DNA of 34,912 bases from Nanobdellota archaeon (GCA_038045485.1 JBBSYA010000052.1:1-34912); one strand, 5' to 3'. Counted from the stretch's first letter, positions 7,597 through 26,192 are shown. Notes: generated by a model not told the origin, from the letters alone. Numbers and translations: made by a program.

Positions 7597-7794
7597 ATGG
7601 ATCCATTCGCAGAAAAAGAGTTGATAGATAATTTGAGAAGTATTGCAATTTCCTTAAGAAATATGGATAGAAAAATGGACGATATGACTCTGTCCTTAAG
7701 AGAATTAGCTGCCTCTGAAAATGATAAAGATGATATAGATAATTCTGTAGAAAAAGAAGAAATTTCTGATAACCAGCCTTGCACAAAATATTAA
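7597..7794 (+). CDS. Small acidic coiled-coil-like hypothetical protein (65 aa)
   Basis: CTTTATAAAC box at 7564-7573 ends 23 nt upstream of the ATG. No recognisable domain. Confidence 0.4.
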   Translation: MDPFAEKELIDNLRSIAISLRNMDRKMDDMTLSLRELAASENDKDDIDNSVEKEEISDNQPCTKY

Positions 7795-7798
7795 CCTA

Positions 7799-8827
7799 TT
7801 AATGTGCAACCATCATACTTGCACAAGATTTAAAATCAATTTCTATATTAGATAAATAAATTTCCTGAGCCAATACACAAAGATTATGGCACAATATTTT
7901 GCATAAAATTTCATTAGTCTGTGAAATAGGATCCTTAAACATAACCGAATCAGAGAATCTTTGTTTTATCATAAAGAATCCAGATTCCGCATTTGAACGA
8001 AGATGATATTTCTCCATGAATTCTTCCCGATTATTCTTAAAATATTTGTATATTCTATTCCAAGCTGGAGCTCCTCTTGATTTTCCAGTAGCATTTTTTT
8101 TAAATGGAATATAGGGAGTTATATTTAGATCGTCCGCAAATTGTAAATTCTCCCTTGATGAATAAGCTAAATCTGCCGAAATTTCTTCAACATTAAAATT
8201 ATCTGCCGCATGTTGTAGTAATTCAATAAATCTGGGGGAATCAGCAGCAGTTCCATCAGTAATTATAGCATTAGCTATTATGTTGCTATGAACTCCATAA
8301 ATACAATGTGCCTTTTTGTATTGCTGGTGCATAGAGAATTTTTGCCTTGCTGAAACCCATCTTTCCATGTATTTTCTTTCAGAAAAACCAGTCGAGTCTA
8401 TTGCGAATTTAGTTTCTAGTTGAGCTACAGGTAATGCCGAGAGTTCTATAAGAAATTTTAAGTGTTTAGTTACATTGTGATTATCAAAATAATTACAGAT
8501 AGAATTAAAATGAGGAACACTATTAATAAAATTCTTGTTTCTGCATAATTCTAAGTCTGAAATAAGTCTTCTGGCAGATAATCCTGAATAAACCTTAAAA
8601 CACATACAAAAGATCATATGATTTACTGGTTGAGGATGTCTACCCTTTCCCGCATAAGGATTTCCCTCAGTCATGCTTGCTAATTCTTTTAAAAGATTCA
8701 ATACTATAATTTTCTCTCTGGTTTGAGAATTATTGTACGCTCTCCAGTTAAACGGCTCTTCTGCTTCAAAATTAGCCCATTCATCCATTGTTTTCTGCGG
8801 TTCTGGTTCTTTGTCATATACTTTCAT
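7799..8827 (-). CDS. DDE transposase (IS4/IS5-superfamily-like, DDE_Tnp_1 type)
   Basis: Candidate catalytic triad contexts are FAIDSTGFS, ISADLAYSS and RSNAESGFFMIKQRF. The N-terminal W-x-AYNNSQTREK motif is typical of this transposase class. Terminal inverted repeats not resolved. Confidence 0.8.
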   Translation of the reverse strand: MKVYDKEPEPQKTMDEWANFEAEEPFNWRAYNNSQTREKIIVLNLLKELASMTEGNPYAGKGRHPQPVNHMIFCMCFKVYSGLSARRLISDLELCRNKNFINSVPHFNSICNYFDNHNVTKHLKFLIELSALPVAQLETKFAIDSTGFSERKYMERWVSARQKFSMHQQYKKAHCIYGVHSNIIANAIITDGTAADSPRFIELLQHAADNFNVEEISADLAYSSRENLQFADDLNITPYIPFKKNATGKSRGAPAWNRIYKYFKNNREEFMEKYHLRSNAESGFFMIKQRFSDSVMFKDPISQTNEILCKILCHNLCVLAQEIYLSNIEIDFKSCASMMVAH

Positions 8828-8910
8828 GTTTGTGTTTCCTTGAATTTAATTTTACTATAACTAGTAAGCAGCCCCATAAGTTTTCCCCATAAACTGCTTA
8901 TATGTATTTA

Positions 8911-9012
8911 TAGTCTATTAACTCATAGTTAAGCCCCTTTATAAACTTTATGGATTTATAGACTAAAAACTATTAGACTATGGAAACATTTATATATGTA
9001 AATATAGTCTAT
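8911..9012. promoter_or_regulatory. Four TAGWCTA quasi-palindromic sites around the promoter of the AbrB/wHTH/GmrSD operon
   Basis: TAGTCTAT at 8911, ATAGACTA at 8958, TTAGACTA at 8973 and TAGTCTAT at 9005. GAAACATTTATATA (8983-8996) lies between sites 3 and 4, 22 nt before the ATG at 9018. Confidence 0.5.
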
Positions 9013-9017
9013 ATATT

Positions 9018-9239
9018 ATGGTAAAAAGTGGTGGAATTCCAAGAGAAGTCTTGAACGATTTAGATATAACTAAAAGAAGAGAGATAAAACCTGAAGAGGT
9101 AACCGTAATAGTAGAAAGACATCAAATTAAAATTCCCCTGCCAAAAAATGTTAGAATTAAACTAAATCTAAAGAAAAATACAAAATGCATTGTATCTTAT
9201 GATGAAGAAAATAAAGAGGTAAATTGCAAGTTCAAATGA
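9018..9239 (+). CDS. AbrB/SpoVT-like small DNA-binding protein
   Basis: HQIKIPLPKNVRIKLNLKKNTKCIVSYDEE matches the swapped-hairpin (x)IPKxIRxxLxLxxGxxV pattern. Confidence 0.55.
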   Translation: MVKSGGIPREVLNDLDITKRREIKPEEVTVIVERHQIKIPLPKNVRIKLNLKKNTKCIVSYDEENKEVNCKFK

Positions 9240-9445
9240 AAGAAAAATTAAATCCAATAGAATCTAAAATTATAACTGTTCTAGTCCAGAATGGAGATTA
9301 TATGACTACCGCGCAAATAGCAAAAGAAGCAAAAATCTCCTGGAATACTGCTATTAATTATCTCACTGCCTTTCATAAAAAAGGATGGGTTGAGAAAGCA
9401 GGAGATACAGTTATCTCTTGGAGAGCTATTTTGGAGGGTGAATAA
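9236..9445 (+). CDS. Winged helix-turn-helix protein
   Basis: MTTAQIAKEAKISWNTAINYLTAFHKKGWVEK is a wHTH pattern. The ATG at 9236 overlaps the upstream stop (ATGA), suggesting translational coupling. The ORF-track start at 9224 is TTG. Confidence 0.55.
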   Translation: MKEKLNPIESKIITVLVQNGDYMTTAQIAKEAKISWNTAINYLTAFHKKGWVEKAGDTVISWRAILEGE

Positions 9446-9476
9446 GTTTTTATAGAAGCTTAAAGGTAAATAAAAC

Positions 9477-11183
9477 ATGGTAAAAGCAGATATAAAGATA
9501 AGAGAACTTGTTGACAAGGTACAAAGAGGAGAACTAAAGCTCCCAGAAATGCAGAGAAAATATGTTTGGCCTGCAACAAGAGTTAGAGATCTTCTTGATT
9601 CCCTTTATCGTAAATATCCCTCTGGAACAATTTTAGTTTGGGAAACAGATGAAGATATTACCGATAGAAATTTAGCTATAAAAGCTACCAAAAGTCCAAC
9701 AACTTCTCAGAAACTACTTTTATTAGACGGACAACAAAGAGTTACGTCTCTCTCTGCAATTTTGTCAGGAGAACCTATTCAGGTTAAAAATAAAGATAAA
9801 CCTATTGAGATTTTATTTAATTTAGAACATCCAGAAGGTCCACCTACAGAATTAATAGAAGTTGATGAAAAAGATGTTCCAGAAGATTTTGAAGAAAATG
9901 AAGATGAAGAATCTGCTAGAGTAGATATTCAACAAGAATTAAAAAAGAGAACTTTTGTAGTTTCTACTAAAATGCTTAAAAATAATCCCCTATGGGTATC
10001 AGTTTCTGATGTTTTCAAAAAAAGCGAGAGTCAAATATTAAAACCACTTGGAATAAATTCTGATGATTCTAAATGGGAAAAATATTCTAAGAGGTTACAA
10101 GAATTAAAGAAAATTGAAGAGTATGAATATGTTATGCAAATATTAGATAAAAAAATGTCTTATGAAGAAGTAACTGAAATTTTTGTTAGAGTAAACTCTT
10201 TGGGTATTAAATTAAGGGGTTCTGATTTGGCACTGGCACAAATAACATCTAGATGGAAAGGATTTATGGGGCAACTAGAAAATTTCTCTTCAGAATTTGA
10301 TAAGGATGATGGGGAATATTTATTAAATTCAGGTTTACTCGTTAAAACACTTGTTTCATTCGCAACACACCAAAGTAAGTTTAAAACAGTTGGTAAATTA
10401 TCTCTGAAACAATTAGAAAGTTCATGGGAATTAGCTAAGAATGGAATACGTTTTGCAGTCAATTTCATAAAAACTAATGCTCGAGTTGATAGACTGGATT
10501 ATCTTTCTTCCCCTTTCTTAATTATTCCGATAGCTGTTTATGCAATTAATAATAAAGAAAATTTATCTAATGAAAACGAAAAGCTTTTGTTAAAATGGCT
10601 ATTTTACGCTCATATGAGGGGGCATTATAGTTTGGGCTCATCTGAATCTATTCTTGATGCGGATTTGTCTAGCCTATTTAATAAAAATAATCTTGAATAC
10701 TTAAACAATATTTTGTTAAATCAGGTAAAGAGATTCGAAGTTATTTCTGATGATTTAAAAAATAGGGGAACTTCAGGCCCTTTCTTTTCTATGTTATATC
10801 TTATATTAAAAGAAGGCGGGGCTAAGGATTGGTTTACTGGACTCCCTCTGTCAAACAAACATATCGGAAAAAGCCACTCTTTACAGTATCATCATATTTT
10901 CCCGCAATCTCTTCTAAAAGAGAAAGGTTTTGATAGAAAAGAGATAAATGAAATAGCTAATATGGCATTCATAGGTGGGAAGACAAATCGTACGATTACA
11001 AATAAAGAGCCAAAAATATATTTTGAAGATATAATTCAAAAAAAAGGCGAAGGAGCGCTTACTTCTCAGCTTATAACAATGAATAAGGAGTATTGGGAAA
11101 TAAATAATTTTCTTATTTTCACACAAAAGAGAAGAGAATTGATTGCAGAAGAAATAAACAAATTTATGAAAAAACTTGAATAA
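9477..11183 (+). CDS. GmrSD-like DUF262 (ParB-like NTPase) + DUF1524 (His-Me finger nuclease) protein, putative type IV restriction enzyme
   Basis: N-terminal LPEMQRKYVW...LLDSLYRKYPSGTI...LLDGQQRVTSL is the DUF262 hallmark DGQQR. C-terminal LQYHHIFPQS...NEIANMAFIGGKTN is a DUF1524-type H...N...N pattern. Confidence 0.85.
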   Translation: MVKADIKIRELVDKVQRGELKLPEMQRKYVWPATRVRDLLDSLYRKYPSGTILVWETDEDITDRNLAIKATKSPTTSQKLLLLDGQQRVTSLSAILSGEPIQVKNKDKPIEILFNLEHPEGPPTELIEVDEKDVPEDFEENEDEESARVDIQQELKKRTFVVSTKMLKNNPLWVSVSDVFKKSESQILKPLGINSDDSKWEKYSKRLQELKKIEEYEYVMQILDKKMSYEEVTEIFVRVNSLGIKLRGSDLALAQITSRWKGFMGQLENFSSEFDKDDGEYLLNSGLLVKTLVSFATHQSKFKTVGKLSLKQLESSWELAKNGIRFAVNFIKTNARVDRLDYLSSPFLIIPIAVYAINNKENLSNENEKLLLKWLFYAHMRGHYSLGSSESILDADLSSLFNKNNLEYLNNILLNQVKRFEVISDDLKNRGTSGPFFSMLYLILKEGGAKDWFTGLPLSNKHIGKSHSLQYHHIFPQSLLKEKGFDRKEINEIANMAFIGGKTNRTITNKEPKIYFEDIIQKKGEGALTSQLITMNKEYWEINNFLIFTQKRRELIAEEINKFMKKLE

Positions 11184-11287: not shown

Positions 11288-13705
11288 ATGGCAAACGAAA
11301 GAAATACTGAAAATATAGTTAGAGATCATTTCAAGAAAGATCCATTATATAATATAATTAAGTTAGAAGAACAAAAATCTTCTAATAAAAAAATTGATGA
11401 AATTTTACAATATTCTTCTAAATCTGGTTCGGGAGTAGGAAAACCAGAATTTTTAATTACATTCCCTTCTGGTGATGCAGATTATATCATTGTAATAGAA
11501 TGTAAGGCAGATATAACTCTTCATAAAAGCAAAAAAGAGGACAATCCCAAGGATTATGCAGTTGATGGTGTTATTAAATATGCTAAAAAACTTGCTGAGA
11601 AATTTAATGTAATTGCTATTGCAGTAAGTGGAGAAACAGAAAAAGAAATGTTAGTATCTCATTTCCTTTTTAAAAAACAGACAAAAACTTATAGTGAACT
11701 AAAAGAGGGCAATATTCTTTGTTCAATTAACGACTATTTAAGAATATTCGGTAATAATAATTTTGCAGATAATTTAAAAAATATAGACATCATCCAGAAA
11801 GCAATTTATTTGAATGAACTATATCAATCTTATTCTGTAACAGAGAATACTCGATGTACGATGATTAGTGCAATTCTTGTATCATTACTTGATGATCCTT
11901 TTAGAAGTAGTTATAATAAATACAATTCCTCAGCTTCACTTGCTAAAGCAATACTTTCTGCAATTCAAAATGTCTTAGAAAAAAATAATGTGAAAGGCAA
12001 GGGAGAAATGCTTGGAGAATATAACAAAATATTAAATGAGCCTCTTTTTAAAGAAGAAAAAATAAAACATCGAGATGAAAAGGATTACCAATTATCCATA
12101 GAGATTAATAAGGGAATAATAGATTATATTCATGAAAATGTTTATCCACTGGTAGATATGGAACAAAGCGGATTTGATGTTCTTGGAAGATTCTATACTG
12201 AATTCATTAGATATGCGGGAAGTGAACAAAGTCAGGGATTAGTACTAACGCCGTCACACATAACGGATCTTTTTTGTGATTTAGCAAATATAAACGAAAA
12301 TAGTATATTATACGATCCTTGTTGTGGCACTGGTGGATTTTTAATTGCTGGAATGAAAAGGATGTTAAAACTAGCTGGAGATCGAGAAACTAAAATAAAA
12401 TCTATAAAATCAAAACAATTAATAGGCGTTGAATTACGCCCTTCCATGTTTACATATGCTTGTTCTAATATGATGATGAGAGGAGATGGGAAATCAAATA
12501 TTTATTGCGGAGATTGTTTTAGCCTAGAAAATTCAGTAATGAAAAATCATAAACCCAATATTGCTTTTTTAAATCCCCCTTATGATGTTGGAAATGCTGG
12601 GCAAATGAGATTTATAGAACATGCATTAAAAGTAGTTGAACCTCAAAATGGCATTGTAGTAGCAATTGTTCAGATGAGTTGTGCATTTAAAAATGAAAAA
12701 GAATTAATTGCAATTAAAAAAAGAATATTAGAAAAAAATAGATTAATTGCCTCCCTTTCAATGCCTGATGATTTATTTTATCCCATTGGGGTTATAACAA
12801 CCATTATGGTTTTTAAGGCTGGAGAAAAGAATGAAAAGAAAAAAACATGGTTTGGATATTTTAAAGATGATGGGTTTGAAAAAAGAAAGCACAGAGGGAG
12901 AATAGATGCTAGATCTAAATGGTTAGAAATAAAAGATAAATGGATAAGAGCATATAATAATCTTGATGAAGTTCCTGGCATTTCTATTAAAGCAGAAGTA
13001 ACGGAAGAAGAAGAATGGTGTGCAGAAGCTTATATGAAAACAGATTACTCTGTTCTTTCAGAAAAAAACTTTGAGAATAAAATGAGGGACTATGTAGCAT
13101 TTACTATAGAATCAAATACAAGTGCGAATACAAATTCCAAAATTGGAGAAAAAATAAAGAAAAAAAACATTTCTTTATCTGAAAGAAAATGGAAGTGGTT
13201 TAAATATGATTCTATTTTTGAAATAAAGCATGGATTTTATAATAGAAAACCAGATACAAATCCTAACGGAGAGATAATTTTTATAGGGGCTACTGAATTA
13301 AATAATGGAATAACTTCACATCATAAAATAGAAGATATAGAGGCAACGCCCAAAGCAGAAAATGCACCAAATGTGCCTCTTAAAGAAAAAATATTTGAAA
13401 AAAATAGTATTACTGTTTCAAATAATGGTTCTGTTGGATATGCTTTCTATCAACCAATAAATTTTACTTGTTCTCATGATGTAAATCCCCTATATTTAAA
13501 AGAAAAAGAGTTAAATAAATACATTGCAATGTTCTTATGTCCCTTGATAGAATTAGAACAGTATAGATGGGCATTTGGTAGAAAATGGAGACCAATAAGA
13601 ATGCCTCTATCTGAAATAAAATTACCTATAAATGAAAAAGGAAATCCTGATTGGAATTTTATGGAAAATTATATTAAATCTTTGCCTTATAGTTCAAACT
13701 TATAA
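11288..13705 (+). CDS. Single-polypeptide restriction-modification enzyme: PD-(D/E)xK nuclease + gamma-class N6-adenine methyltransferase + one HsdS-like TRD (Type IIG/IIB-like)
   Basis: N-terminal GDADYIIVIECKAD is a D...ExK motif. The methylase part has GLVLTPSHITDLF, motif I DPCCGTGGFL and motif IV FLNPPYD. The C-terminal roughly 190 aa look HsdS-like (WKWFKYDSIFEIKHG ... IRMPLSEIKLPINEKGNPDWNFMENYIKSL). A GGGGGT SD-like sequence precedes the ATG. Confidence 0.85.
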   Translation: MANERNTENIVRDHFKKDPLYNIIKLEEQKSSNKKIDEILQYSSKSGSGVGKPEFLITFPSGDADYIIVIECKADITLHKSKKEDNPKDYAVDGVIKYAKKLAEKFNVIAIAVSGETEKEMLVSHFLFKKQTKTYSELKEGNILCSINDYLRIFGNNNFADNLKNIDIIQKAIYLNELYQSYSVTENTRCTMISAILVSLLDDPFRSSYNKYNSSASLAKAILSAIQNVLEKNNVKGKGEMLGEYNKILNEPLFKEEKIKHRDEKDYQLSIEINKGIIDYIHENVYPLVDMEQSGFDVLGRFYTEFIRYAGSEQSQGLVLTPSHITDLFCDLANINENSILYDPCCGTGGFLIAGMKRMLKLAGDRETKIKSIKSKQLIGVELRPSMFTYACSNMMMRGDGKSNIYCGDCFSLENSVMKNHKPNIAFLNPPYDVGNAGQMRFIEHALKVVEPQNGIVVAIVQMSCAFKNEKELIAIKKRILEKNRLIASLSMPDDLFYPIGVITTIMVFKAGEKNEKKKTWFGYFKDDGFEKRKHRGRIDARSKWLEIKDKWIRAYNNLDEVPGISIKAEVTEEEEWCAEAYMKTDYSVLSEKNFENKMRDYVAFTIESNTSANTNSKIGEKIKKKNISLSERKWKWFKYDSIFEIKHGFYNRKPDTNPNGEIIFIGATELNNGITSHHKIEDIEATPKAENAPNVPLKEKIFEKNSITVSNNGSVGYAFYQPINFTCSHDVNPLYLKEKELNKYIAMFLCPLIELEQYRWAFGRKWRPIRMPLSEIKLPINEKGNPDWNFMENYIKSLPYSSNL

Positions 13706-14380
13706 CCTCGCAATCTTACCAGCATCAGTAAGTTCTATTCCTTTTTCTGTAGAAACTAAATCCATATCCTTTAGTTCGTCAATTGCTCGGTATAGCATTG
13801 CCGTAGATAAATCGATTTTAGCTGCTAAATCTCCAATAGATTCGTACTTCTTTTTTCCGACTTCTTCAAGAATTTTCTTTTGGCTTTCAGTTAAATGAAA
13901 ACTTAGTCTTGGAAGATAAACAATAGAACTTTTATCTTCTTCAGGATTGTAAGCAATCTTACTAACTCGTTCGTGCCTGGCGTAAGCTGCAAAAAGCAAT
14001 CCAATAGCCTTAGTTTTCCTTCCAGCAGTAATATTCACAAAAATATGATCTTCTTTCGGCTGTAAATCAATAACCTCTACAGCTTTTCGAGCCACTTCAA
14101 CTATATCATAAACATCAGTCTTCACAATTTTTATCTCTAGAACCTTCCCTAATGATTCCTGGATGAGTTTTACAGAAGCTTCCTGTTCTTTATCAGGATC
14201 CTTATCAATTAGAAGTATAAGTCTCTCAGGCCCGAGCCGTGTCGCAGCCAAAAGAACTGGTTCAGGATTATATAATGTCGCGATAAGCACCTTTTTTCCC
14301 ATGATTTCTTCGTTTGCCTGGTTTTCAGGCTTAATTTCCTCAATAATAAAGGGTTTTTCTTCGTTTATATAAGTTTCCAT
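13700..14380 (-). CDS. csa3: Csa3-like CARF + wHTH transcriptional regulator (cas_HTH type)
   Basis: The Rossmann-like N-domain has KKVLIATLYNPEPVLLAA and NITAGRKTKAIGLLFAAY, a CARF-type Thr/Gly loop. The C-terminal wHTH is LTESQKKILEEV...SIGDLAAKIDLSTAMLYRAIDELKDMDLV. Overall architecture is colinear with Sulfolobus Csa3 as I recall it. A TATA-like sequence on the minus strand (14402-14410) supports the 14380 start; an alternative ATG is at 14302. Confidence 0.65.
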   Translation of the reverse strand: METYINEEKPFIIEEIKPENQANEEIMGKKVLIATLYNPEPVLLAATRLGPERLILLIDKDPDKEQEASVKLIQESLGKVLEIKIVKTDVYDIVEVARKAVEVIDLQPKEDHIFVNITAGRKTKAIGLLFAAYARHERVSKIAYNPEEDKSSIVYLPRLSFHLTESQKKILEEVGKKKYESIGDLAAKIDLSTAMLYRAIDELKDMDLVSTEKGIELTDAGKIARL

Positions 14381-14485: not shown

Positions 14486-15970
14486 ATGGTTAATAATTTA
14501 CTTAAACAATTTATAAAAGAATCAAGTCTATCTGAAAATAATAAACTTTCTATTAAATTTCTAGTCGATTCCATAAATGGAGAAATAAATCAGTTTACAG
14601 ACAAGTCTTATCTTTTTGAAGGCAGCCCAGGTATAGGAAAAACTTATTTTGTAGAGAGTTTTCTTAAAATGTTAGATTTTCCTGTTTTATATCTTGGTCC
14701 TTTCAAATTAGAAGGAAAGAATATAAGAAAATTTGATAGTCTTAAACAAATAATGGAAGAAATCCATAGTTTAGAAAAAGGAATAATTTACTTAGATGAT
14801 ATACAAAATTCATTAGAATTCGAAAGAGACGGCATGGGCGATCCTCATTTAAATGATATTGAAGGTAAAAGATTCCTAAATTTATTAGAATTAGTCAAAA
14901 GAAGCAACAAAAAGTTATTTCTTATTATGACTGTTAATGACTCGAGTTTTATGGAAGATTCTTGGAAGGATAGAATAGAAACTTTTATAGATTTATTGGA
15001 GCCTTTTGAAAAAAGCAAAAAGATTTTTCTAAATAAAAAATATGGTAATTTAATAGGTAAAAATATAATCAATGAAATTGCCTCTAAATCAATTGGTTAT
15101 AATTTTAGAAATCTTGATGAAGTAATAAGAATGGCTTATCGTTTTGGTAATGGAATAATTAATCTCAAATCTACAAACAAAGCATTTTCTAGCTATACTC
15201 CTTCTGGGCTTGCAAACTATGATATTGAATTTAAATCAAATTTGAATTTTAACAATGTTTTCGGCCATAACAAAATAAAAAAGGAACTGAAAAAATTAGC
15301 ATTATATAAAAATAATAAAAATAAACTAGACAAATTACAAATAAAAAGAAATAATTTTTTCATATTCTCTGGAAATCATGGTATAGGAAAAACTCATATG
15401 GCGCGAGCATTAGCTGGTGAGTTAAAATTGCCTTTAATTAAAATTAGCGCGTGGGATATTCATTCACCCAGACATGGAATTACTAAAATAATGAACACAG
15501 CTAGCCGATACAAGAATTGCATTATTCTTATTGATGAGGCAGATAAATTACTAGGTCTACATGCTTATTCTATGGAAGAAGAAGGGGTTTTGCTTGGAGA
15601 AATGAATCGGCAAATAGATGATGCTGCCAGAGAAATTAAATCAATAATAATTCTTTCAGTTAATAATCTAACTAGACTTGGAAAAGCTATGAAAGATAGA
15701 TTTACTGTATTGGAGTTCAATAATCCGCCAATAGAAGACAGAAGAGAATTTGTAAATAATCTAATAAGCAAAAGTGGACTAAACCTTTCAGTAACTGCCG
15801 AAGATATTGCTCAAATGACAGATGGCAGAAATTATAGGGATATTCAAAGAATTTGGAATGATGTAGTCTTTTATTATTTAGAAAATAAAGAAATGGATAA
15901 GAATATTCTTACCGATTTAATTGTCCCCATCAATATTAATGAAAGGAGAGTTCATACTGGAATTGGATAA
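14486..15970 (+). CDS. Tandem classic-clade AAA+ ATPase (two ATPase modules, no recognisable N-terminal substrate domain)
   Basis: D1 has Walker A GSPGIGKT, Walker B IIYLDD (no Glu) and an SRH-like WKDRIETFIDLLEP. D2 has Walker A GNHGIGKT, Walker B ILIDEADKL, sensor-1 LSVNN and AMKDRFTVLEFNNPPIEDRREF. Confidence 0.85.
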   Translation: MVNNLLKQFIKESSLSENNKLSIKFLVDSINGEINQFTDKSYLFEGSPGIGKTYFVESFLKMLDFPVLYLGPFKLEGKNIRKFDSLKQIMEEIHSLEKGIIYLDDIQNSLEFERDGMGDPHLNDIEGKRFLNLLELVKRSNKKLFLIMTVNDSSFMEDSWKDRIETFIDLLEPFEKSKKIFLNKKYGNLIGKNIINEIASKSIGYNFRNLDEVIRMAYRFGNGIINLKSTNKAFSSYTPSGLANYDIEFKSNLNFNNVFGHNKIKKELKKLALYKNNKNKLDKLQIKRNNFFIFSGNHGIGKTHMARALAGELKLPLIKISAWDIHSPRHGITKIMNTASRYKNCIILIDEADKLLGLHAYSMEEEGVLLGEMNRQIDDAAREIKSIIILSVNNLTRLGKAMKDRFTVLEFNNPPIEDRREFVNNLISKSGLNLSVTAEDIAQMTDGRNYRDIQRIWNDVVFYYLENKEMDKNILTDLIVPININERRVHTGIG

Positions 15971-15971
15971 T

Positions 15972-16130
15972 ATGAATAAACAAGATAAAATTTGGGAATT
16001 ATATGAAAGAACGATGCAAGATATAGGAACATTGAAACATTTTTGTAAAGATAATCCTCGCGCATTAAAACAAATAACTTTTATTGATATAGATATAATT
16101 AATCTTAGAGAAAGAGGATTAAAAAAATGA
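15972..16130 (+). CDS. Tiny hypothetical protein (52 aa), operonic with the ATPase
   Basis: The ATG is 1 nt after the ATPase stop. The sequence looks helical. The ORF-track start at 15921 overlaps the ATPase, so the internal ATG is preferred. Confidence 0.35.
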   Translation: MNKQDKIWELYERTMQDIGTLKHFCKDNPRALKQITFIDIDIINLRERGLKK

Positions 16131-16378
16131 AAATACAGGATTTTTCAAGGCTAAAAAAAGGAGATGTAATCATAATTAGCTGGCTGGACCCTAAAAATTT
16201 AGAATTAGGAAATCTCGCCCCTACTTTAAATATAGGTTTTTATTATTCGCAGGATAAAAGAGAAATTTTAATAAGCAATATAATTAGTGGGAAAGGTAAA
16301 TCCTCAAAGTTTAATGTTACTATTATTCCTAAAAATTTAGTAACTAATCTCGAAGTGGTGAGGAGAAAAATAAAATGA
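16127..16378 (+). CDS. Small hypothetical protein (83 aa), operonic
   Basis: ATGA start/stop overlap with the preceding ORF. No recognisable domain. It is followed by a GC-rich hairpin. Confidence 0.4.
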   Translation: MKIQDFSRLKKGDVIIISWLDPKNLELGNLAPTLNIGFYYSQDKREILISNIISGKGKSSKFNVTIIPKNLVTNLEVVRRKIK

Positions 16379-16385
16379 ATAACCC

Positions 16386-16399
16386 CGCCCTAAAGGGCG
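16386..16399 (+). terminator. GC-rich hairpin after the ATPase operon
   Basis: CGCCC-TAAA-GGGCG lies 8 nt after the stop at 16378. It is conspicuous in an AT-rich background. Confidence 0.4.
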
Positions 16400-16549
16400 A
16401 GGTATCCGAATAACAAACAAAAAAATGCTAACACAAACAACAAACAAGCTAAGCAGAAAAAATCTTACTGATAAACTTAAATTAAACTCCGAGGAAGAAG
16501 GCAATTCCTCACTCTGTTTGAAAGCAGAGGTATCCTTGCCTTTGATGTA

Positions 16550-16732
16550 ATGAAATTTAGAAAAATAATCCAAGAGCAGAAACAGAAGATGAAAGCGGAA
16601 CGTAATAAAAGAATAATTGAAGAACACGAGAAAAATGTAAGCGAAGAAGAAATAGCTAAGATGCTTAATATCCATTATTCTACTGTTCATTTGATAATCA
16701 GAAATTTTAAGGAGAAGAATGAAAAAATTTAG
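16550..16732 (+). CDS. Small HTH protein (60 aa)
   Basis: SEEEIAKMLNIHYSTVHLIIRNF is a typical helix-turn-helix of the resolvase/transposase-N/sigma-r4 style, preceded by a Lys/Glu-rich helix. A further 59-codon ORF (16719-16898) overlaps its end. Confidence 0.4.
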   Translation: MKFRKIIQEQKQKMKAERNKRIIEEHEKNVSEEEIAKMLNIHYSTVHLIIRNFKEKNEKI

Positions 16733-17040
16733 ATTATCTTATGTTATTGAAAAGGGAATAGCATTAGAAGCTCAAAATGAAGACGATGCTTGCGAGAGAT
16801 TTTGGAATCTGCCTGAAGGGAAAGAAGCGGATAGAATTGAAGAGGTTGAAGAATTAAAAGAGTAGCATAAAGGCTACACGCCTACCCATCAAAAAATGAA
16901 AATAAACCACATATCTAAATTTTTTAGTCCAAATAAATCTGAGGGATTATTATTTTGATGACACAACAGGTTCAGACTGGCTTGGATATTTTTCTATTAA
17001 ATCTTCGATTGGTTCATAAGCGGTTTTAGAGCTATCGCCT

Positions 17041-17124
17041 GAAATAGGTGGGGATTCGAACCCCAGAAGGCACTAAGCCATTCGGTTGACAACCGAACCC
17101 GTTTGACCGCTTCGGTACCCTCAA
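17041..17124 (-). pseudogene. tRNA-like sequence: class-II-type body, GUC in the anticodon position, no pairable acceptor stem
   Basis: Read on the minus strand, the D arm is CCG-AAGCGGTCAAA-CGG. The anticodon arm is TTCGG-TTGTCAA-CCGAA. The long variable arm is T-GGC-TTAGT-GCC-TTC. The T arm is TGGGG-TTCGAAT-CCCCA. The 5' TTGAGGG and 3' CCTATTT cannot pair. Confidence 0.4.
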
Positions 17125-17210: not shown

Positions 17211-17254
17211 TGACATTAGTAATGACATTATAAATGACATTAAAGATGACACAA
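17211..17254 (+). repeat. Four direct TGACAYWA repeats with exact 12-bp phasing (iteron-like)
   Basis: TGACATTA occurs at 17211, 17223 and 17235, and TGACACAA at 17247. The array overlaps the first ATG of the 17234 ORF. Confidence 0.65.
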
Positions 17255-17446
17255 GCAAAATTGTATACTGAATCTGAATTAGGTTTTGAAAGAGTATTTG
17301 AAATAAGAATTAGGGATTTAAGGGAGAGAAAAGGAATAAAACAAAAGTCCTTTTCAGTATCCGTAAAGAAGGGGATCAAAGATACAGAATATCTTACCGC
17401 AGAAGAGATGAAAAATTTCCTTGAAAATAGGGTATCAACTAAATAA
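17246..17446 (+). CDS. Small hypothetical protein (66 aa)
   Basis: ORF with no recognisable domain. The second ATG (17246) is preferred because the first lies inside the repeat array, but the start is uncertain. Confidence 0.3.
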   Translation: MTQAKLYTESELGFERVFEIRIRDLRERKGIKQKSFSVSVKKGIKDTEYLTAEEMKNFLENRVSTK

Positions 17447-17483
17447 ATTTATAAATCGATTTAGGCTTAAATAAATAAGCCAA

Positions 17484-17981
17484 ATGGAAAAAATGATACC
17501 TTCAGTTTTTGGGAAAATATTAAATGGAAAATATACTCTAACTGGTGGATTTCAAATAATGAAAGTTTATTTAGATAAAAAAGAATATCCTTCATATGAT
17601 GAAGCCGAAGATTTGAGAGAACATCTAAATCTTGATGATCAGGGTTCGGTATGTGACTGCTTCTGTAAGATAAGAGCGACTAATCTGGGTGAAATTAATA
17701 TTCTTTTTGAAGATAAAAATTCAAATTCTGGTCATTCTAAAGATATGTTTAAGGCAATAAAACAACTAAATACGACCCATAAGGATTTAAAAACAAAAAA
17801 GAATGAGAACATAGATTTCGCCATAATTTGTAGGGTACCAGTAGAAACTTCTTTCAGGGCAAGATCTAAAGATAATTTCCCAGCAAAGGCATTATTTCCC
17901 GTTACTAATCCTAAAGAGCATATGACTTTAGATAGTAAAAATATTAAAGGATTTGGGGTTCCGCTATTATCACACCTTTAA
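17484..17981 (+). CDS. Hypothetical protein (165 aa), possible PD-(D/E)xK-like fold
   Basis: SVCDCFCKIRATNLGEINILFEDKNS gives a D-x19-E-D-K spacing reminiscent of Hjc/restriction-endonuclease cores. This is only a pattern match and no other motif supports it. Confidence 0.45.
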   Translation: MEKMIPSVFGKILNGKYTLTGGFQIMKVYLDKKEYPSYDEAEDLREHLNLDDQGSVCDCFCKIRATNLGEINILFEDKNSNSGHSKDMFKAIKQLNTTHKDLKTKKNENIDFAIICRVPVETSFRARSKDNFPAKALFPVTNPKEHMTLDSKNIKGFGVPLLSHL

Positions 17982-17982
17982 A

Positions 17983-18858
17983 ATGGCATTATTTTTGAGT
18001 ATAAAAAATAAAAATAAAGAAAATTACAATTTTGATAGATTTAAAACCGCAATCATGATATTCTCAGAAATTTTTAAGAATTTTGAGATAAGAGATACTT
18101 CATTTTTATTTTACAAATATGAGCCCTATAAGGAATTTAATGAAGAATTTAAAAGACTACCCTTTGATTTGGGCATATTAGAAACTTTTATCAGAGATAA
18201 ACTAAAGAATATAAAAGCTGATTCTACTTATTATGGTTTAGAATTAGAATCTGATATTTTCGTAGATAATAAAAAGTTCAAACTTCTATTTGAATTGATA
18301 CCAAATTATAAGCCGAAATCTTATGACTTAAAAATAGATATTCTAGGGAATGGTTATGCCGAAATATTAGAAGACTTGGATAATTATTATCCTGAATTTA
18401 GGAAAGTAATGTTAGAGAATATAAAAAATTATAATGAAAAATTGGACAAAGGAAAACTATCAGGATTACAAATAGAAAAAGCAATAATGAGTGAATACAA
18501 TCAAGAAGTTCATGATATTGATACTTGGAATATGTTTTATTCAAAAAATCCTTCCGATATTATTGTTCACATATCCTCTGAAGATAAAAAGATAAAAGAA
18601 AGATTGATTTATGGAAATAAAAATAAATTTGCCCAGAGATTAAATATGCTTCAGCCATATATAATTAAATTTGCAGAATACGCAAAAGAAGCTAATGTTG
18701 AAATATCTCAGGGAAGTATTGCTATTCTTCCAAAAAATAAGAAAGCTATGGGGGACTTCATGGGAAAATTAAGAAAAAAAATCAATTTAGCTGTAGAAAA
18801 AGCATATTTAAATAAAAGTGATTATGAGGAAAAATTATCTGAAGCTTTTTTAGATTAA
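17983..18858 (+). CDS. Hypothetical protein (291 aa), no recognisable domain
   Basis: The ATG is 1 nt after the stop of the upstream ORF, so the two are tightly coupled. The ORF-track start at 17953 is TTG. Confidence 0.5.
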   Translation: MALFLSIKNKNKENYNFDRFKTAIMIFSEIFKNFEIRDTSFLFYKYEPYKEFNEEFKRLPFDLGILETFIRDKLKNIKADSTYYGLELESDIFVDNKKFKLLFELIPNYKPKSYDLKIDILGNGYAEILEDLDNYYPEFRKVMLENIKNYNEKLDKGKLSGLQIEKAIMSEYNQEVHDIDTWNMFYSKNPSDIIVHISSEDKKIKERLIYGNKNKFAQRLNMLQPYIIKFAEYAKEANVEISQGSIAILPKNKKAMGDFMGKLRKKINLAVEKAYLNKSDYEEKLSEAFLD

Positions 18859-18863
18859 TTTAA

Positions 18864-20252
18864 TTATTTTATACAACCAAAACCTTCTCTTGAATGACAC
18901 TCTTCCTTTAAGGAGCATACTCCTGTTTTATTCATAAAGGGACAGGGTGGTAGAGACAAAATATCTTTTTCTCCTTTCTCCAATTTCACGATTATCTCTT
19001 TAGTTTTAGCTAAGATTTCATTTGTATTTTTATAAGTAATTTCAAATGCCTGAATAAAATTATTTTTCTTTGGAGAAATTATGAATATAATCCCTTTAGT
19101 TTTGCCGTAATTAGCTACCACTATTCCTAGTTCTGCGATATAATATTCATTAGGTCTTGTTTGAATATTATTACTCATATTTGCTTTTACTATATATGGT
19201 ATTATTTTAGAATCTTGATTACCCGAACTTTTAGTATTAGCCCACCTATAGCCAACATGAAGACGTGGTTCTAGACTAGATTTAAATAATTCTTTTCTTT
19301 CACCAAAAGATAATTTAATTGGAAGTTTTTTAACAAGTGCCCCTAGAAATGATTGAGATTCTTTTTTTTCTTGATCATTTTCTCCATCTTCTTTAAGATT
19401 GTACTTTCTTGGAGAAATTATATTCCAAGTAGAAAAGAAATTTTTTGAAGCATGATACTTTGTTTTTACTTCTAGTAATCTTTTAGTCATCTCTTCATCG
19501 TAGGTTAAATTAATAGCTTGTTGCAACTGTTCTGTAGAAAGAGGTTCCAATTTATCGCAATTGCAAAGATTAGCCTCAAAAAACTGGCATCCTTTTTCAT
19601 GATACCTGCATCTGCCAAGGGAAATCGGATTCTTAGTTTTGATAGCTTCATCTAAAGTTTTTATTCTTGTTTTTATCAGTGAATCTATTTTGCTGGGATC
19701 TTTTATTTCTATTTTAAATGCTTTAAATGGAAATGTTCCTGAATCTTTCATAAAAATTAAATAATTTATTTTATCGTGAGAAGGATGAATAGCGGAATAA
19801 AAGCAGACTTGTTCTACATCTTGAGGATATTTAGATATTACTTCTTCAGCCGTTTCAGGAATTTCATTTTTAGTTTTTAAATCAAATATAGAATCTCCTA
19901 TTCTACAATCAATTCTGCCTTTAACTCCAGGTAAATCAACCCAAGCCCCATCAATATTTCCCTCATTAACTACAAAATCTGGAAATGTTTCTAACCATTT
20001 TCCTGTGATTCCATGTAATGTAGTTCCCCAATTAAGTTTTTTTTGTATGACCATGGGTTTTTCTACTTTTTCACTGGTTCTAGCCCAATAGGTTTGAGCA
20101 GGGTTACACAATTCAGTAACAATATAGTAATCTGCAACATTAGGTTTCTTTTTAGTATCTTGTATCATCATTCTTAACATTGAAGATAAAGATTCATTAT
20201 AGGTAAATCCCCCAGACACACGTTCATTTACGAAATCAACCATATTTTCCAT
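18864..20252 (-). CDS. Cas4/RecB-like PD-(D/E)xK nuclease with Fe-S-type cysteine cluster plus uncharacterised C-terminal half carrying a second Cys cluster
   Basis: In order: TELCNPAQTYW (N-terminal Cys), NWGTTLHG, GRIDCRIGDSIFDLKTK (D...D-x-K), QVCFYSAI (QxxxY), then CRYHEKGCQFFEANLCNC. The C-terminal end has PPCPFMNKTGVCSLKEECHSREGFGC. Confidence 0.65.
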   Translation of the reverse strand: MENMVDFVNERVSGGFTYNESLSSMLRMMIQDTKKKPNVADYYIVTELCNPAQTYWARTSEKVEKPMVIQKKLNWGTTLHGITGKWLETFPDFVVNEGNIDGAWVDLPGVKGRIDCRIGDSIFDLKTKNEIPETAEEVISKYPQDVEQVCFYSAIHPSHDKINYLIFMKDSGTFPFKAFKIEIKDPSKIDSLIKTRIKTLDEAIKTKNPISLGRCRYHEKGCQFFEANLCNCDKLEPLSTEQLQQAINLTYDEEMTKRLLEVKTKYHASKNFFSTWNIISPRKYNLKEDGENDQEKKESQSFLGALVKKLPIKLSFGERKELFKSSLEPRLHVGYRWANTKSSGNQDSKIIPYIVKANMSNNIQTRPNEYYIAELGIVVANYGKTKGIIFIISPKKNNFIQAFEITYKNTNEILAKTKEIIVKLEKGEKDILSLPPCPFMNKTGVCSLKEECHSREGFGCIK

Positions 20253-20281
20253 GATAAAACTATATGCGACGGTTATTTAAA

Positions 20282-20302
20282 ATATACTCTTATAGAGTAT
20301 AT
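20282..20302. promoter_or_regulatory. 9-bp-arm inverted repeat in the divergent promoter region
   Basis: ATATACTCT-TAT-AGAGTATAT lies immediately next to TTATTTAAAA, 30 nt from the minus-strand ATG at 20252. Confidence 0.45.
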
Positions 20303-20361
20303 AACTGGAATTTACTTTATCCTGAAGATAAGTTTTTATATAAGTAACACTTATAGTTTTT

Positions 20362-20529
20362 ATGCCAAAGGTATTTTATCAATGTCAAAATATTGAGTGT
20401 AATTCAATATTTGAGATAGACTATGAAACTAGAGAACCATTTTGCTGCGTAAAATGTAATAAACAAGTCGATTATGGATTAATTATAAAATATCTTATTT
20501 TAAGAGCATTGAACGATAAATTTTCTTAA
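20362..20529 (+). CDS. Small zinc-ribbon protein (55 aa; below ORF-track cutoff)
   Basis: MPKVFYQCQNIECNSIFEIDYETREPFCCVKCNKQV has CxxxxC...CxxC spacing. Confidence 0.3.
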   Translation: MPKVFYQCQNIECNSIFEIDYETREPFCCVKCNKQVDYGLIIKYLILRALNDKFS

Positions 20530-20533
20530 TTAT

Positions 20534-20585
20534 ATTATTGTGCAGCCCCCTCCATTATTGTTCAGAATCAACTATATTGTGCAAG
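20534..20585 (+). repeat. Three direct ATTGTKCA-containing repeats spaced 19-20 bp
   Basis: ATTATTGTGCAG at 20534, ATTATTGTTCAG at 20554 and ATATTGTGCAAG at 20574, about two helical turns apart. Confidence 0.55.
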
Positions 20586-20687
20586 GCTCTGATAACCAAA
20601 ACATTTAAATAGTATACATCCTCTTGTGTATACATAATTGTATATACTAAATCGAAAGATGAACATATACAACACCTCTTTTTTCAT

Positions 20688-20709
20688 CTGGGGTATGCGC
20701 ATACCTCAG
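20688..20709. promoter_or_regulatory. 22-bp near-perfect palindrome upstream of the Zn-ribbon/AbrB gene
   Basis: CTGGGGTATGCGCATACCTCAG has a perfect 14-bp core GGTATGCGCATACC. It is followed by the TATA-like CTAAAATAAAAG and then the ATG at 20753. Confidence 0.5.
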
Positions 20710-20752
20710 TGATACTCTAAAATAAAAGAAAGAAAACAACACAAACAAAAAC

Positions 20753-26191: not shown

Positions 26192-26192
26192 T

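What the first reader, a model, noticed from the sequence alone, without database searches (positions are those of the whole stretch)
7597..20752. About 13-kb accessory defence-type island between signal peptidase and Cdc48 neighbourhoods
Between housekeeping genes lies a block of: a transposase; AbrB+wHTH+GmrSD-like; a Type IIG-like R-M-S fusion; a Csa3-like regulator with a tandem AAA+ ATPase operon; a small HTH gene; a degenerate tRNA-like sequence; phased iterons; two unknown proteins; a Cas4-like nuclease; and a 500-bp repeat-rich spacer. Clustering of known restriction-type genes with uncharacterised ATPase and nuclease genes is the classic guilt-by-association signature of defence islands. 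The tRNA-like fragment and the iterons point to past integration of a plasmid or virus.
Basis: partly seen in the sequence, partly recalled or inferred. Interest (0 to 1): 0.6.

Follow-up and report, generated by a model that had tools for sequence, protein, structure and literature searches.

The report
Defence-gene island is one giant transposon
The 13-kb block is a real accessory island of anti-virus genes in a tiny groundwater (DPANN) archaeon. It was not left by a virus or plasmid: it is a single 12.8-kb jumping gene with its own IS5/IS903-type transposase, inverted ends and a 9-bp target duplication.

Summary
In at least 20 of 40 related genomes across the order, the two flanking genes are adjacent, divergent neighbours. 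These are the signal peptidase (with a small ORF, 7597-7794) and the Zn-ribbon/AbrB gene at 20753. A congener holds only about 345 bp there. The island has the lowest GC of 230 matched genome windows.

The true limits are 7775-20588 (12,814 bp). 17-bp terminal inverted repeats (15/17 matching) are each abutted by the 9-bp direct repeat CTGATAACC. An intact IS5-family DDE transposase lies 8 bp inside the left end, and there is no third end near it.

A metagenome contig carries a sister element in unrelated flanks, with a different Type IIG enzyme:
- transposase 90% aa identity
- Csa3 99% aa identity
- AAA ATPase 96% aa identity

Cargo:
- GmrSD
- Type IIG R-M
- a conserved Csa3/Cdc48-like tandem-AAA pair
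- a Cas4-fold nuclease
- a putative small PD-(D/E)xK protein
- a dead tRNA-Leu derivative

The AbrB-like and wHTH genes belong to the transposon backbone, not to GmrSD.

No integrase or att repeat was found. This scan has noted IS903-like cargo transposons before in other DPANN genomes. I found no published description in the paper library I could search.

The parts
7597..7794 (+). Core small ORF (65 aa) and site of insertion. It is not part of the island. Its last six codons (QPCTKY*) are supplied by the left transposon end.
   Evidence: 63% aa identity over its full length to G001, and partial identity to G003. Removing the element and one repeat copy restores a 62-aa ORF ending ...EEISDNQNI*. 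G001 ends ...TEETAQI*.
7766..7774 (.). Left copy of the 9-bp target-site duplication, CTGATAACC.
   Evidence: There are only two copies in the window, against 0.18 expected. G001 has the single sequence ATTCTTGATTACCAAAAC at the homologous spot.
7775..7791 (+). Left terminal inverted repeat, AGCCTTGCACAAAATAT. A second TTGCACAA copy lies at 7819.
   Evidence: The same end, ATATTTTGTGCAAGGC, follows the transposase stop in L065 and L066.
7799..8827 (-). IS5-family DDE transposase, 342 aa, apparently intact.
   Evidence: Pfam DDE_Tnp_1 2e-16. NCBIfam transpos_IS5_2 9e-34, below its curated cut-off. D144, D219, E281 and the Y/R/E/K signature residues are invariant across 6 homologues. It occurs as a single copy in the genome.
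8911..9011 (.). Divergent promoter region between the transposase and the AbrB-like gene. It holds four TAGWCTA quasi-palindromes, which I read as a putative operator array.
   Evidence: Four of the 7 window matches fall within 100 bp. L065 has two exact TAGTACTA copies (0.27 expected by chance) in the equivalent region.
9018..9445 (+). AbrB-like (73 aa) and wHTH (73 aa) genes with overlapping ends. Together they form the transposon backbone regulator pair.
   Evidence: Pfam MazE/AbrB weak, HTH_24 8.7e-6. A small-ORF plus wHTH pair lies divergent from the transposase in L065, L068 and L072 as well.
9477..11183 (+). GmrSD-type (DUF262 plus DUF1524) type IV restriction enzyme; cargo.
   Evidence: Only distant homologues were found, in 2 of 40 relatives.
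11288..13705 (+). Type IIG restriction-methylase with a fused specificity domain; cargo.
   Evidence: PADLOC REase_MTase_IIG 9e-101, with Pfam N6_Mtase and Methylase_S. The sister element L065 has a different IIG enzyme (Eco57I/TaqI_C) in its place.
13700..14380 (-). Csa3-type CARF-wHTH regulator, with no CRISPR-Cas detected in the genome.
   Evidence: TIGR01884 77 bits (cut-off 60); PADLOC CARF3 1e-69. No cas1, cas10 or repeat array was found in the 76%-complete genome.
14486..15970 (+). Tandem (D1-D2) AAA+ ATPase, Cdc48/p97-like but without an N domain, divergently paired with Csa3.
   Evidence: Both Walker A and Walker B motifs are invariant. AF2 pLDDT is 84.5, and the best PDB folds are Cdc48, Rix7 and p97 with TMq about 0.6. 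The Csa3/AAA pair recurs in L047, L048, L050, L063 and L065.
15921..16865 (+). Small ORFs: o69, o83 (16127-16378), a 60-aa HTH protein (16550-16732) and o48 (16719-16865).
   Evidence: o83 (56%) and o48 (67%) have homologues in L065, placed next to its transposase. The HTH protein gives weak PHROG and Pfam HTH matches.
17041..17123 (-). Dead derivative of tRNA-Leu.
   Evidence: The D arm matches the host tRNA-Leu(CAA) on contig C24 at 22 of 22 bases, and the variable arm is identical. The anticodon arm is replaced (GUC) and the acceptor strands cannot pair. No closer copy was found in 40 relatives.
17211..17254 (+). Four TGACAYWA repeats at 12-bp spacing, overlapping the start of the 70-aa ORF at 17234-17446.
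   Evidence: Five of the 6 window matches lie within 300 bp. Their function was not tested.
17484..17981 (+). 165-aa protein with a D...ExK motif; putative small PD-(D/E)xK nuclease.
   Evidence: 31 representative proteins match at E<=1e-3. D31, D58, E76 and Q94 are invariant and K78 nearly so. There is no sequence match in Pfam or PDB, so this reading rests on the motif only.
17983..18858 (+). 291-aa (301-aa from the upstream TTG) protein with no detectable relatives.
   Evidence: Only itself was found among 5.8 billion clustered proteins. No family hits.
18864..20252 (-). Two-domain Cas4-family nuclease without any CRISPR association.
   Evidence: PHROG 1706 7.6e-9 over aa 30-271. Invariant residues: D115, K126, Q148, Y152 and two four-Cys clusters; E124 is nearly invariant. 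AF2 pLDDT is 82, and the best PDB fold is 4IC1, the SSO0001 Cas4 (probability 1.0, TMt 0.61). Homologues sit among R-M, T4SS-like and integrase genes.
20362..20529 (+). 55-aa Zn-ribbon ORF.
   Evidence: It carries two CxxC pairs and is called as a gene on replicate contigs.
20537..20588 (-). Right terminal inverted repeat (20572-20588, AGCCTTGCACAATATAG on the minus strand), preceded by two subterminal ATTGTKCA repeats (20537 and 20557).
20589..20597 (.). Right copy of the 9-bp target-site duplication, CTGATAACC.
   Evidence: It is followed at once by AAAACATTTAAATA (20598-20611), which matches the local promoter consensus. Genome-wide, the TATA box peaks at -29 from the start codon.

Best explanation
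The island is one cargo-carrying DDE transposon of 12,814 bp (7775-20588) from an IS5/IS903-like family.

How it arrived. Its transposase (7799-8827) recognises the two inverted ends and their subterminal TTGCACAA repeats. It inserted the whole unit by staggered 9-bp cuts into CTGATAACC. That target lies in the last codons of a small core ORF, at the upstream edge of the neighbouring gene's promoter.

Backbone. The element consists of the transposase, a divergent AbrB-like/wHTH regulator pair with an operator array between them, and variable cargo.

Cargo. Here the cargo is a stack of nucleic-acid-directed defence genes:
- GmrSD, which cuts modified DNA.
- A Type IIG R-M enzyme, which cuts unmodified DNA and methylates the host's own DNA.
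- A Csa3 ligand-sensing regulator paired with a Cdc48-like tandem AAA+ motor.
- A Cas4-fold nuclease.
- A putative small PD-(D/E)xK nuclease.

Shown here: the element is accessory, it has transposon-type ends and a target duplication, the transposase signature residues are intact, a sister element exists elsewhere, and the domain and fold assignments hold.

Inferred: the element moved with its cargo as one unit, the AbrB/wHTH pair regulates transposition or the cargo, and each cargo gene has the stated defence activity.
For: (1) Empty site in relatives.
- The flanking genes are adjacent and divergent in at least 20 relatives across the order.
- The congener G001 has about 345 bp where the window has 12.8 kb.

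(2) Transposon ends.
- The 17-bp inverted repeat matches at 15 of 17 positions, and these are the only two matches in the window.
- Each end is abutted on the outside by CTGATAACC, which has only two copies in the window.
- Of 10,437 pairs of 9-bp direct repeats 0.7-20 kb apart, no other pair has more than 12 of 17 inner inverted identity.
- The structure appeared 0 times in 200 shuffles.
- All three TTGYRCAA sites in the window lie at the two ends.

(3) The transposase.
- It lies 8 bp inside the left end.
- Its DDE and YREK residues are conserved.
- No partner end lies near its start.

(4) Family pattern.
- In L065, L068 and L072 no partner end was found within the available more than 10 kb, 4.6 kb and 3.5 kb upstream of the transposase.
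- L067 is a 2.5-kb element with both ends and a 1.5-kb passenger.

(5) Sister element L065.
- Nucleotide identity to the window: 84% over the transposase and end, 94% over Csa3-AAA, 73% over AbrB-wHTH.
- It also carries o83 and o48 homologues and a different Type IIG enzyme.
- Its flanks have no nucleotide similarity to this genome.

(6) Composition. Island GC is the lowest of 230 matched windows.
Against: - Only one full element with both ends and a large cargo was seen. The distal end of L065 lies outside the DNA I could hold.
- Relative to G001 and G003 the site also differs by small, lineage-specific ORFs (79 aa; 258 aa plus 77 aa). No strictly isogenic empty site was seen.
- Module identities to L065 are uneven (68-94%). 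The cargo has therefore been reshuffled by recombination and need not all have arrived in the one transposition event.
- Only one copy exists in this 76%-complete genome.
- The NCBIfam IS5 model matches below its curated cut-off.
- IS903-group membership rests on the 9-bp duplication, which I recall from ISfinder and did not test here.
Confidence: 0.78

Rival explanations
1. A plain IS inserted at CTGATAACC. The 11.7 kb of cargo later accumulated inside it, between the transposase gene and its distal end, by unrelated insertions or recombination. On this reading the island grew in place and never moved as a unit.
For: - The target duplication is equally compatible with this order of events.
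- Module identities to L065 are uneven, and o83/o48 sit at different places in the two elements.
- The internal tRNA-Leu relic and the iteron-like repeats look like debris from another element.
Against: - L065 shares the transposase, the AbrB/wHTH pair, the Csa3/AAA pair and o83/o48 in unrelated flanks.
- None of the relatives with upstream sequence has a proximal partner end.
- L067 shows both ends around a passenger gene.
Confidence: 0.14
2. This is the first reader's reading: the island is the decayed remnant of an integrated plasmid or virus that entered at a tRNA-type attachment site, and the IS is a later hitch-hiker at its edge.
For: - A tRNA-Leu-derived sequence is present.
- Four phased TGACAYWA repeats are present.
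- Cas4-family genes are common on archaeal mobile elements (PMC5704561). Homologues of the 462-aa protein lie near integrases and T4SS-like genes.
Against: - No integrase, replication or structural gene was matched in the island ORFs scanned.
- No repeat of the tRNA-like sequence was found elsewhere in the window or at the edges.
- The relic is internal.
- The edges are an inverted repeat plus a 9-bp duplication, not att direct repeats.
Confidence: 0.06
3. The block is part of the core genome of this lineage, or is a mis-assembly joining unrelated DNA.
For: It has only been seen in one population.
Against: - The flanks are adjacent in relatives.
- The same arrangement was assembled independently in replicate samples, as contigs of 35,952, 21,186 and 1,213 bp.
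- The junction sequences form a coherent inverted-repeat and duplication structure.
Confidence: 0.02

Closest known systems
IS903 / IS5-family insertion sequences
   Same: - A single DDE_Tnp_1 transposase with the DDE triad and YREK signature.
- Short terminal inverted repeats.
- A 9-bp target-site duplication. That this size is typical of the IS903 group is from my own knowledge of ISfinder.
   Different: - The element is 12.8 kb with about 17 passenger ORFs, instead of about 1.05 kb with one gene.
- It is archaeal (DPANN).
- It has a divergent AbrB-like/wHTH regulator pair next to the transposase.
- It has subterminal repeats at both ends.
- The NCBIfam IS5 model is matched only below its curated cut-off (117 against 140 bits).
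Tn7-like transposons with defence cargo (Benler et al. 2021, PMC8649781)
   Same: A transposon whose variable cargo is dominated by defence systems. The backbone is conserved while the cargo is swapped between copies.
   Different: - No TnsA/B/C/D-type genes were seen in the Pfam scans.
- There is a single IS5-type DDE enzyme.
- The target duplication is 9 bp, not 5 bp (Tn7's 5-bp duplication is from my own knowledge).
- No dedicated attachment-site protein was identified.
Defence islands (Makarova et al. 2011, as cited in PMC12988326)
   Same: Restriction-type genes cluster with uncharacterised ATPases and nucleases next to a mobile-element gene, and the block is variable between relatives.
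   Different: Here the whole island has defined transposon ends, so it is itself the mobile element. It is not a chromosomal hot spot that collects genes.
Archaeal IS-like transposons as surveyed in Thaumarchaeota (PMC6563490)
   Same: DDE transposons related to bacterial IS families.
   Different: That survey describes them as typically 1-2 genes. This element carries about 17 ORFs.
Csa3 regulators of CRISPR-Cas; Cas4 (SSO0001, PDB 4IC1); Cdc48/p97
   Same: - Csa3: CARF plus wHTH architecture.
- Cas4: RecB-type motifs with a four-Cys cluster, and best fold match to 4IC1.
- Cdc48: tandem D1-D2 AAA+ fold.
   Different: - No CRISPR-Cas was detected in the genome.
- The Cas4-like protein has an extra C-terminal domain with a second four-Cys cluster.
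- The AAA protein lacks the Cdc48 N domain. It is an accessory gene that evolves much faster than its Csa3 partner (about 40-47% against 80-85% aa identity in most pairs).

Membership tests
Defence island / accessory genomic island | Absent from the same site in relatives, whose flanks are contiguous. | tested here: met
   The flanks are adjacent in at least 20 relatives. G001 holds about 345 bp in place of 12.8 kb.
Defence island / accessory genomic island | Two or more recognised defence genes are clustered. | tested here: met
   GmrSD (both Pfam domains above their cut-offs) and a Type IIG R-M enzyme (PADLOC 9e-101).
Defence island / accessory genomic island | Composition deviates from the host genome. 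| tested here: met
   GC is the lowest of 230 matched windows, and tetranucleotide distance is at the 98th percentile.
IS5 family (IS903 group) transposable element | DDE transposase of the DDE_Tnp_1 type with the YREK signature. | tested here: met
   Pfam 2e-16. D144, D219, E281, Y274, R277 and K288 are invariant.
IS5 family (IS903 group) transposable element | Matches the curated IS5 equivalog model above its cut-off. | tested here: not met
   NF033579 scores 117.3 bits against a cut-off of 140. It is a divergent member at best.
IS5 family (IS903 group) transposable element | Terminal inverted repeats with a 9-bp target-site duplication. | tested here: met
IS5 family (IS903 group) transposable element | Compact element of about 1-1.5 kb with no passenger genes. 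| tested here: not met
   The element is 12,814 bp with 11.7 kb of passengers. No proximal partner end was found.
Integrative element (tyrosine or serine recombinase, tRNA att site) | An integrase gene lies within the element. | tested here: not met
   No integrase or recombinase family was matched by the island ORFs scanned.
Integrative element (tyrosine or serine recombinase, tRNA att site) | Direct repeats derived from a tRNA lie at both edges. | tested here: not met
   The tRNA-Leu-like sequence is internal. It has no second copy in the window or genome apart from true tRNA-Leu genes.
GmrSD type IV restriction | An N-terminal DUF262 domain and a C-terminal DUF1524 domain in one protein. 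| tested here: met
   107.3 and 23.6 bits, both at or above the gathering cut-offs.
GmrSD type IV restriction | Cleaves modified DNA. | not testable with these tools
   This needs biochemistry.
Csa3 (CRISPR-associated CARF-wHTH regulator) | A CARF domain plus a wHTH domain, above the family cut-off. | tested here: met
   TIGR01884 77.2 bits against a 60.2 cut-off. PADLOC CARF3 1e-69.
Csa3 (CRISPR-associated CARF-wHTH regulator) | Encoded with a CRISPR-Cas system, or in a genome with a cyclic-oligoadenylate source. | tested here: not met
   No repeat array was found, no cas1, and no cas10 above cut-off, in a 76%-complete genome. Absence is not proven.
Cas4 family nuclease | RecB-type D / ExK / QxxxY motifs plus a four-Cys cluster, and the Cas4 fold. 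| tested here: met
   Alignment invariants. PHROG 1706 7.6e-9. Best fold match 4IC1, probability 1.0. There was no Pfam hit at E<=0.01.
Cdc48/p97-type (type II) AAA+ ATPase | Tandem D1-D2 AAA domains with an N-terminal substrate or adaptor domain. | tested here: inconclusive
   The tandem AAA fold matches Cdc48, Rix7 and p97 with TMq about 0.6. The N domain is absent. TIGR01243 scores 34 bits against a cut-off of 803.

The most novel reading that the evidence does not exclude
DPANN archaea, which have tiny genomes and mostly lack CRISPR, may receive much of their immunity as ready-made packages on a family of self-regulated IS903-like transposons. These elements would consist of a transposase, an AbrB/wHTH pair and swappable cargo, and would insert at promoter edges. 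One recurrent passenger is the pair of an orphan Csa3 sensor and a fast-evolving Cdc48-like double-ring unfoldase. That pair would be a new ligand-controlled defence system acting on proteins rather than nucleic acids.
Probability: 0.25. Interest if true: 0.8.

Novelty: new variant of a known kind. Interest (0 to 1): 0.6.

Why it matters
This result turns a loose 'guilt-by-association island' into a defined mobile unit with exact ends. That explains how a 0.7-Mb symbiotic archaeon can gain or lose a whole defence repertoire in a single step.

Multi-gene DDE transposons are barely described in archaea. The Thaumarchaeota survey (PMC6563490) describes archaeal IS-like elements as typically 1-2 genes. 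Defence cargo on transposons is best known from bacterial Tn7 (PMC8649781).

Defined ends also give a practical handle. Everything between the inverted repeats of related elements is a candidate for defence or counter-defence function. That includes the conserved Csa3/tandem-AAA pair and the two-domain Cas4-like nuclease.

Tried and rejected
- A default inverted-repeat scan of 7600-9100 found no IS ends around the transposase alone. The ends only appeared when I read both island borders side by side.
- No CRISPR array, cas1 or cas10 was found in the genome.
- Profile searches of the 462-aa and 165-aa families against PDB sequences found nothing. Only fold comparison placed the former.
- The 291-aa protein has no relatives.
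- The tRNA-like sequence has no closer relative than ordinary tRNA-Leu genes in 40 genomes. I looked by eye for a downstream complement to its 5' acceptor strand. I found only a 9-nt near-match about 95 nt away and dropped it as unconvincing.
- Contigs carrying the exact ORF175 or AAA proteins were all the same population with the same arrangement.
- Extra DNA at the same site in G023 (VKOR, MFS, NUDIX, TrmB) and an inversion in G021 are unrelated to this element.
- A search for the end motif in the other loci that hold Csa3/AAA pairs found none. That pair therefore also travels outside this transposon family.


Full report
**Context**

The window is a whole 34.9-kb contig of a 0.72-Mb, 61-contig, 76%-complete genome with 32.4% GC. 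Homologues of its proteins are labelled Nanoarchaeota or other DPANN archaea. Replicate contigs come from 0.1-µm groundwater filtrates named 'Hain_H43'.

**Check of the observation**

Family searches gave the following.
- IS5-family DDE transposase, 7799-8827(-).
- AbrB-like and wHTH mini-genes, 9018-9445.
- GmrSD, 9477-11183.
- A Type IIG restriction-methylase with a fused specificity domain, 11288-13705.
- A Csa3-type CARF-wHTH protein, 13700-14380(-).
- A protein with two P-loop domains, 14486-15970.
- Three proteins with no family match, 17484-20252.

ARAGORN and Rfam both call a tRNA-like sequence at 17041-17123(-). Housekeeping genes flank the block. Upstream are PolB, an RsmB-like gene, an M24 peptidase and the signal peptidase. 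Downstream are Cdc48 and then a metal-resistance cluster.

**Is it accessory?**

Yes, by three tests.
- *Synteny.* I searched 40 relatives (5 congeners, 19 from the same family, 16 from the same order) with the two flanking proteins. The signal peptidase and the 175-aa Zn-ribbon/AbrB protein are adjacent, divergent neighbours in at least 20 of them. The gaps are mostly 70-1,600 bp.
- *Empty site.* The congener G001 has only about 345 bp where the window has 12.8 kb. Two genomes with larger gaps hold unrelated genes or an inversion.
- *Composition and distribution.* Island GC is 29.8%, the lowest of 230 matched 12.8-kb windows of the genome (mean 32.5, sd 0.8). Tetranucleotide distance is at the 98th percentile. 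Island genes are patchy among the 40 relatives: Csa3 in 5, GmrSD in 2 (distant), the transposase in 2 (distant).

**Exact limits and mechanism**

I read the two borders side by side.
- The left border reads TT[CTGATAACC][AGCCTTGCACAAAATAT]TAACC...
- The right border reads ...[CTATATTGTGCAAGGCT][CTGATAACC]AAAACATTTAAATA.

These are a 17-bp terminal inverted repeat (15/17 matching) at 7775-7791 and 20572-20588. Each repeat is abutted on the outside by the same 9-bp direct repeat.

Statistical support:
- Both motifs occur only at these places in the window.
- Among 10,437 pairs of 9-bp direct repeats 0.7-20 kb apart, no other pair has more than 12 of 17 inner inverted identity.
- The structure never arose in 200 shuffles.
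- All three TTGYRCAA sites in the window lie at the two ends. The right end also has three phased ATTGTKCA copies.

The transposase stop codon is 8 bp inside the left end. Its DDE triad and Y/R/E/K signature are invariant among six homologues. No third end lies near the transposase start.

Deleting the element and one repeat copy restores a 62-aa small ORF ending ...EEISDNQNI*, which resembles G001's ...TEETAQI*. G001 carries ATTCTTGATTACCAAAAC at the homologous target.

The duplicated target directly abuts AAAACATTTAAATA. This box matches the local promoter consensus. Genome-wide, TTTA[AT]ATA peaks sharply 29 nt before start codons. The box and the 140-nt leader behind it are conserved in G001.

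I conclude that the island is one transposon-type insertion of 12,814 bp.

**Did the cargo travel with the transposase?**

Relatives of the transposase in metagenomes and genomes argue that it did.
- *L065* (transposase 90% aa identical) has the same end right after the transposase stop and no partner end in more than 10 kb upstream.
  - That stretch holds o48 and o83 homologues and two AbrB-like/wHTH pairs.
  - It also holds Hjc-like and RNase H-like genes and a different Type IIG enzyme (Eco57I/TaqI_C).
  - Its Csa3 is 99% and its AAA protein 96% aa identical to the window's.
  - The DNA beyond its end has no nucleotide similarity to this genome.
- *L068 and L072* (39% and 36% identity) end in TGTGCAACGC. 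They lack a partner end in the 4.6 and 3.5 kb available upstream. Both have a small-ORF plus wHTH pair divergent from the transposase.
- *L067* is a 2.5-kb contig with both ends around a 204-aa passenger and the transposase.

Cargo between the transposase 5' side and the distal end therefore appears to be the norm for this group. The AbrB-like/wHTH pair belongs to its backbone. It comes with operator-like palindromes in the divergent promoter: TAGWCTA four times here and two exact TAGTACTA copies in L065.

Uneven module identities (68-94% nt) show that cargo is also exchanged by recombination between elements.

**The cargo**
- *GmrSD and the Type IIG enzyme* are recognised single-gene restriction systems.
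- *The Csa3/AAA pair* is a conserved divergent module.
  - It recurs in L047, L048 and L050, on G001 contig C4 (in another context) and in L065. L049 has the AAA gene without a recognisable Csa3.
  - GmrSD lies nearby in three of the four metagenome contexts.
  - Csa3 is 80-85% identical where the AAA partner is only 40-43% (L047, L048, G001). In G001, nucleotide similarity stops about 165 bp into the AAA gene.
  - The AAA protein has two intact Walker A/B sets. Its confident model (pLDDT 84.5) is most like Cdc48, Rix7 and p97 D1-D2 without the N domain.
  - The genome shows no CRISPR array, cas1 or cas10. It is 76% complete, so absence is not proven.
- *The 462-aa protein* belongs to a family of about 30 DPANN proteins.
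  - It has RecB-type motifs and two four-Cys clusters.
  - It matches a phage Cas4-like family.
  - Its model (pLDDT 82) is closest to the Sulfolobus Cas4 SSO0001.
  - Its homologues sit among R-M, T4SS-like and integrase genes, without conserved neighbours.
- *The 165-aa protein* has an invariant D...ExK...Q pattern. This suggests a small PD-(D/E)xK nuclease, on motif evidence only.
- *The 291-aa protein* is an orphan.

**The tRNA-like sequence and the 'iterons'**

The sequence derives from tRNA-Leu.
- Its D arm matches the host tRNA-Leu(CAA) at 22 of 22 bases, and the variable arm is identical.
- The anticodon arm is replaced (GUC) and the T stem carries compensatory changes.
- The acceptor strands cannot pair.
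- The host has a normal tRNA-Asp elsewhere.

The sequence is internal to the transposon and has no second copy. It is best read as debris captured with the cargo.

The four phased TGACAYWA repeats are real. They overlap the start of a 70-aa ORF. Their role (operator or origin) is untested.

**Comparison and novelty**

The element works like an IS903-type cut-and-paste element with a 9-bp duplication. That this duplication size typifies the IS903 group is from my own knowledge. It fails the 'compact, cargo-free' feature and the curated IS5 cut-off. As a defence-cargo vehicle it resembles Tn7-like elements (PMC8649781), but it has none of their genes. A survey of archaeal mobile elements describes IS-like transposons as typically 1-2 genes (PMC6563490). 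My literature searches found no description of this family.

After I had found the ends, a look-up of this scan's own notes showed that several IS903-like cargo transposons of 3-9 kb had already been reported in other DPANN genomes. Some of those notes claim insertion at promoter edges. These are unchecked AI notes, not independent evidence. The one site tested here agrees with them. This element is larger than any of those noted and adds the Csa3/AAA pair to the known cargo.

**Verdict**

The 'defence island' reading is supported, the 'integrated plasmid or virus' origin is not. It is a new variant of a known kind, of moderate to high interest.

Noticed in passing
window 20598-20752: A consensus promoter box, AAAACATTTAAATA, lies 142 nt before the next start codon. 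It is followed by two palindromes (GTATACA-N8-TGTATAC and GGGTATGCGCATACC). The stretch is 82% conserved in the congener G001. It may be a structured leader or a small RNA upstream of the Zn-ribbon/AbrB gene.
   Followed up: partly
window 13700-14651, against L063 (G001:C4) 10079-11028: Nucleotide similarity covers Csa3, the shared promoter and only the first ~165 bp of the AAA gene, then collapses (Csa3 83% aa, AAA 40% aa). The regulator is conserved while the ATPase is replaced or evolves fast.
   Followed up: partly
G001:C63 (L026) and G003:C5 (L027), between the small ORF and the ORF175 promoter: The same intergenic spot holds unrelated small genes in the two congeners: a 79-aa ORF in G001, and 258-aa plus 77-aa ORFs in G003. 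The spot is a local hot spot of gene turnover even without the transposon.
   Followed up: partly
window 21542-21607, against L026 2153-2218: A 66-bp segment upstream of Cdc48 is 88% identical to a segment in G001 that lies between the small ORF and the conserved part of the signal peptidase gene. It may be a small dispersed repeat.
   Followed up: no
window 6869-7786 (-): The 305-aa signal peptidase ORF is probably over-extended. Relatives match only from about residue 88, and the first ~65 codons overlap the conserved plus-strand small ORF at 7597-7794.
   Followed up: partly
window 24713-33275; L027 398-517 and 2157-2460: This stretch is a metal-resistance cluster: a DsbD/HMA/cupredoxin protein, an ArsR regulator and two P-type ATPases. 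In G003 the segment homologous to window 33.5-34.9 kb (including tRNA-Lys) lies next to the signal peptidase instead. The region is therefore rearranged or variable between congeners.
   Followed up: no
window 16379-16550: A non-coding stretch between o83 and the HTH gene has two short hairpins. Each ends in GAGGTATCC (CCCCGCCCTAAAGGGCGAGGTATCC and ...GCAGAGGTATCC).
   Followed up: no
L065 9300-9930: The sister element has a second AbrB-like/wHTH pair directly upstream of its transposase. Its palindrome (TAGTACTA) differs from the window's (TAGWCTA), as if regulator and operator specificities co-vary.
   Followed up: partly
genome G000, contig C34 7936-8024: ARAGORN reports an 89-nt tRNA of undetermined identity with a two-base 'anticodon'. 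It may be an intron-containing tRNA.
   Followed up: no
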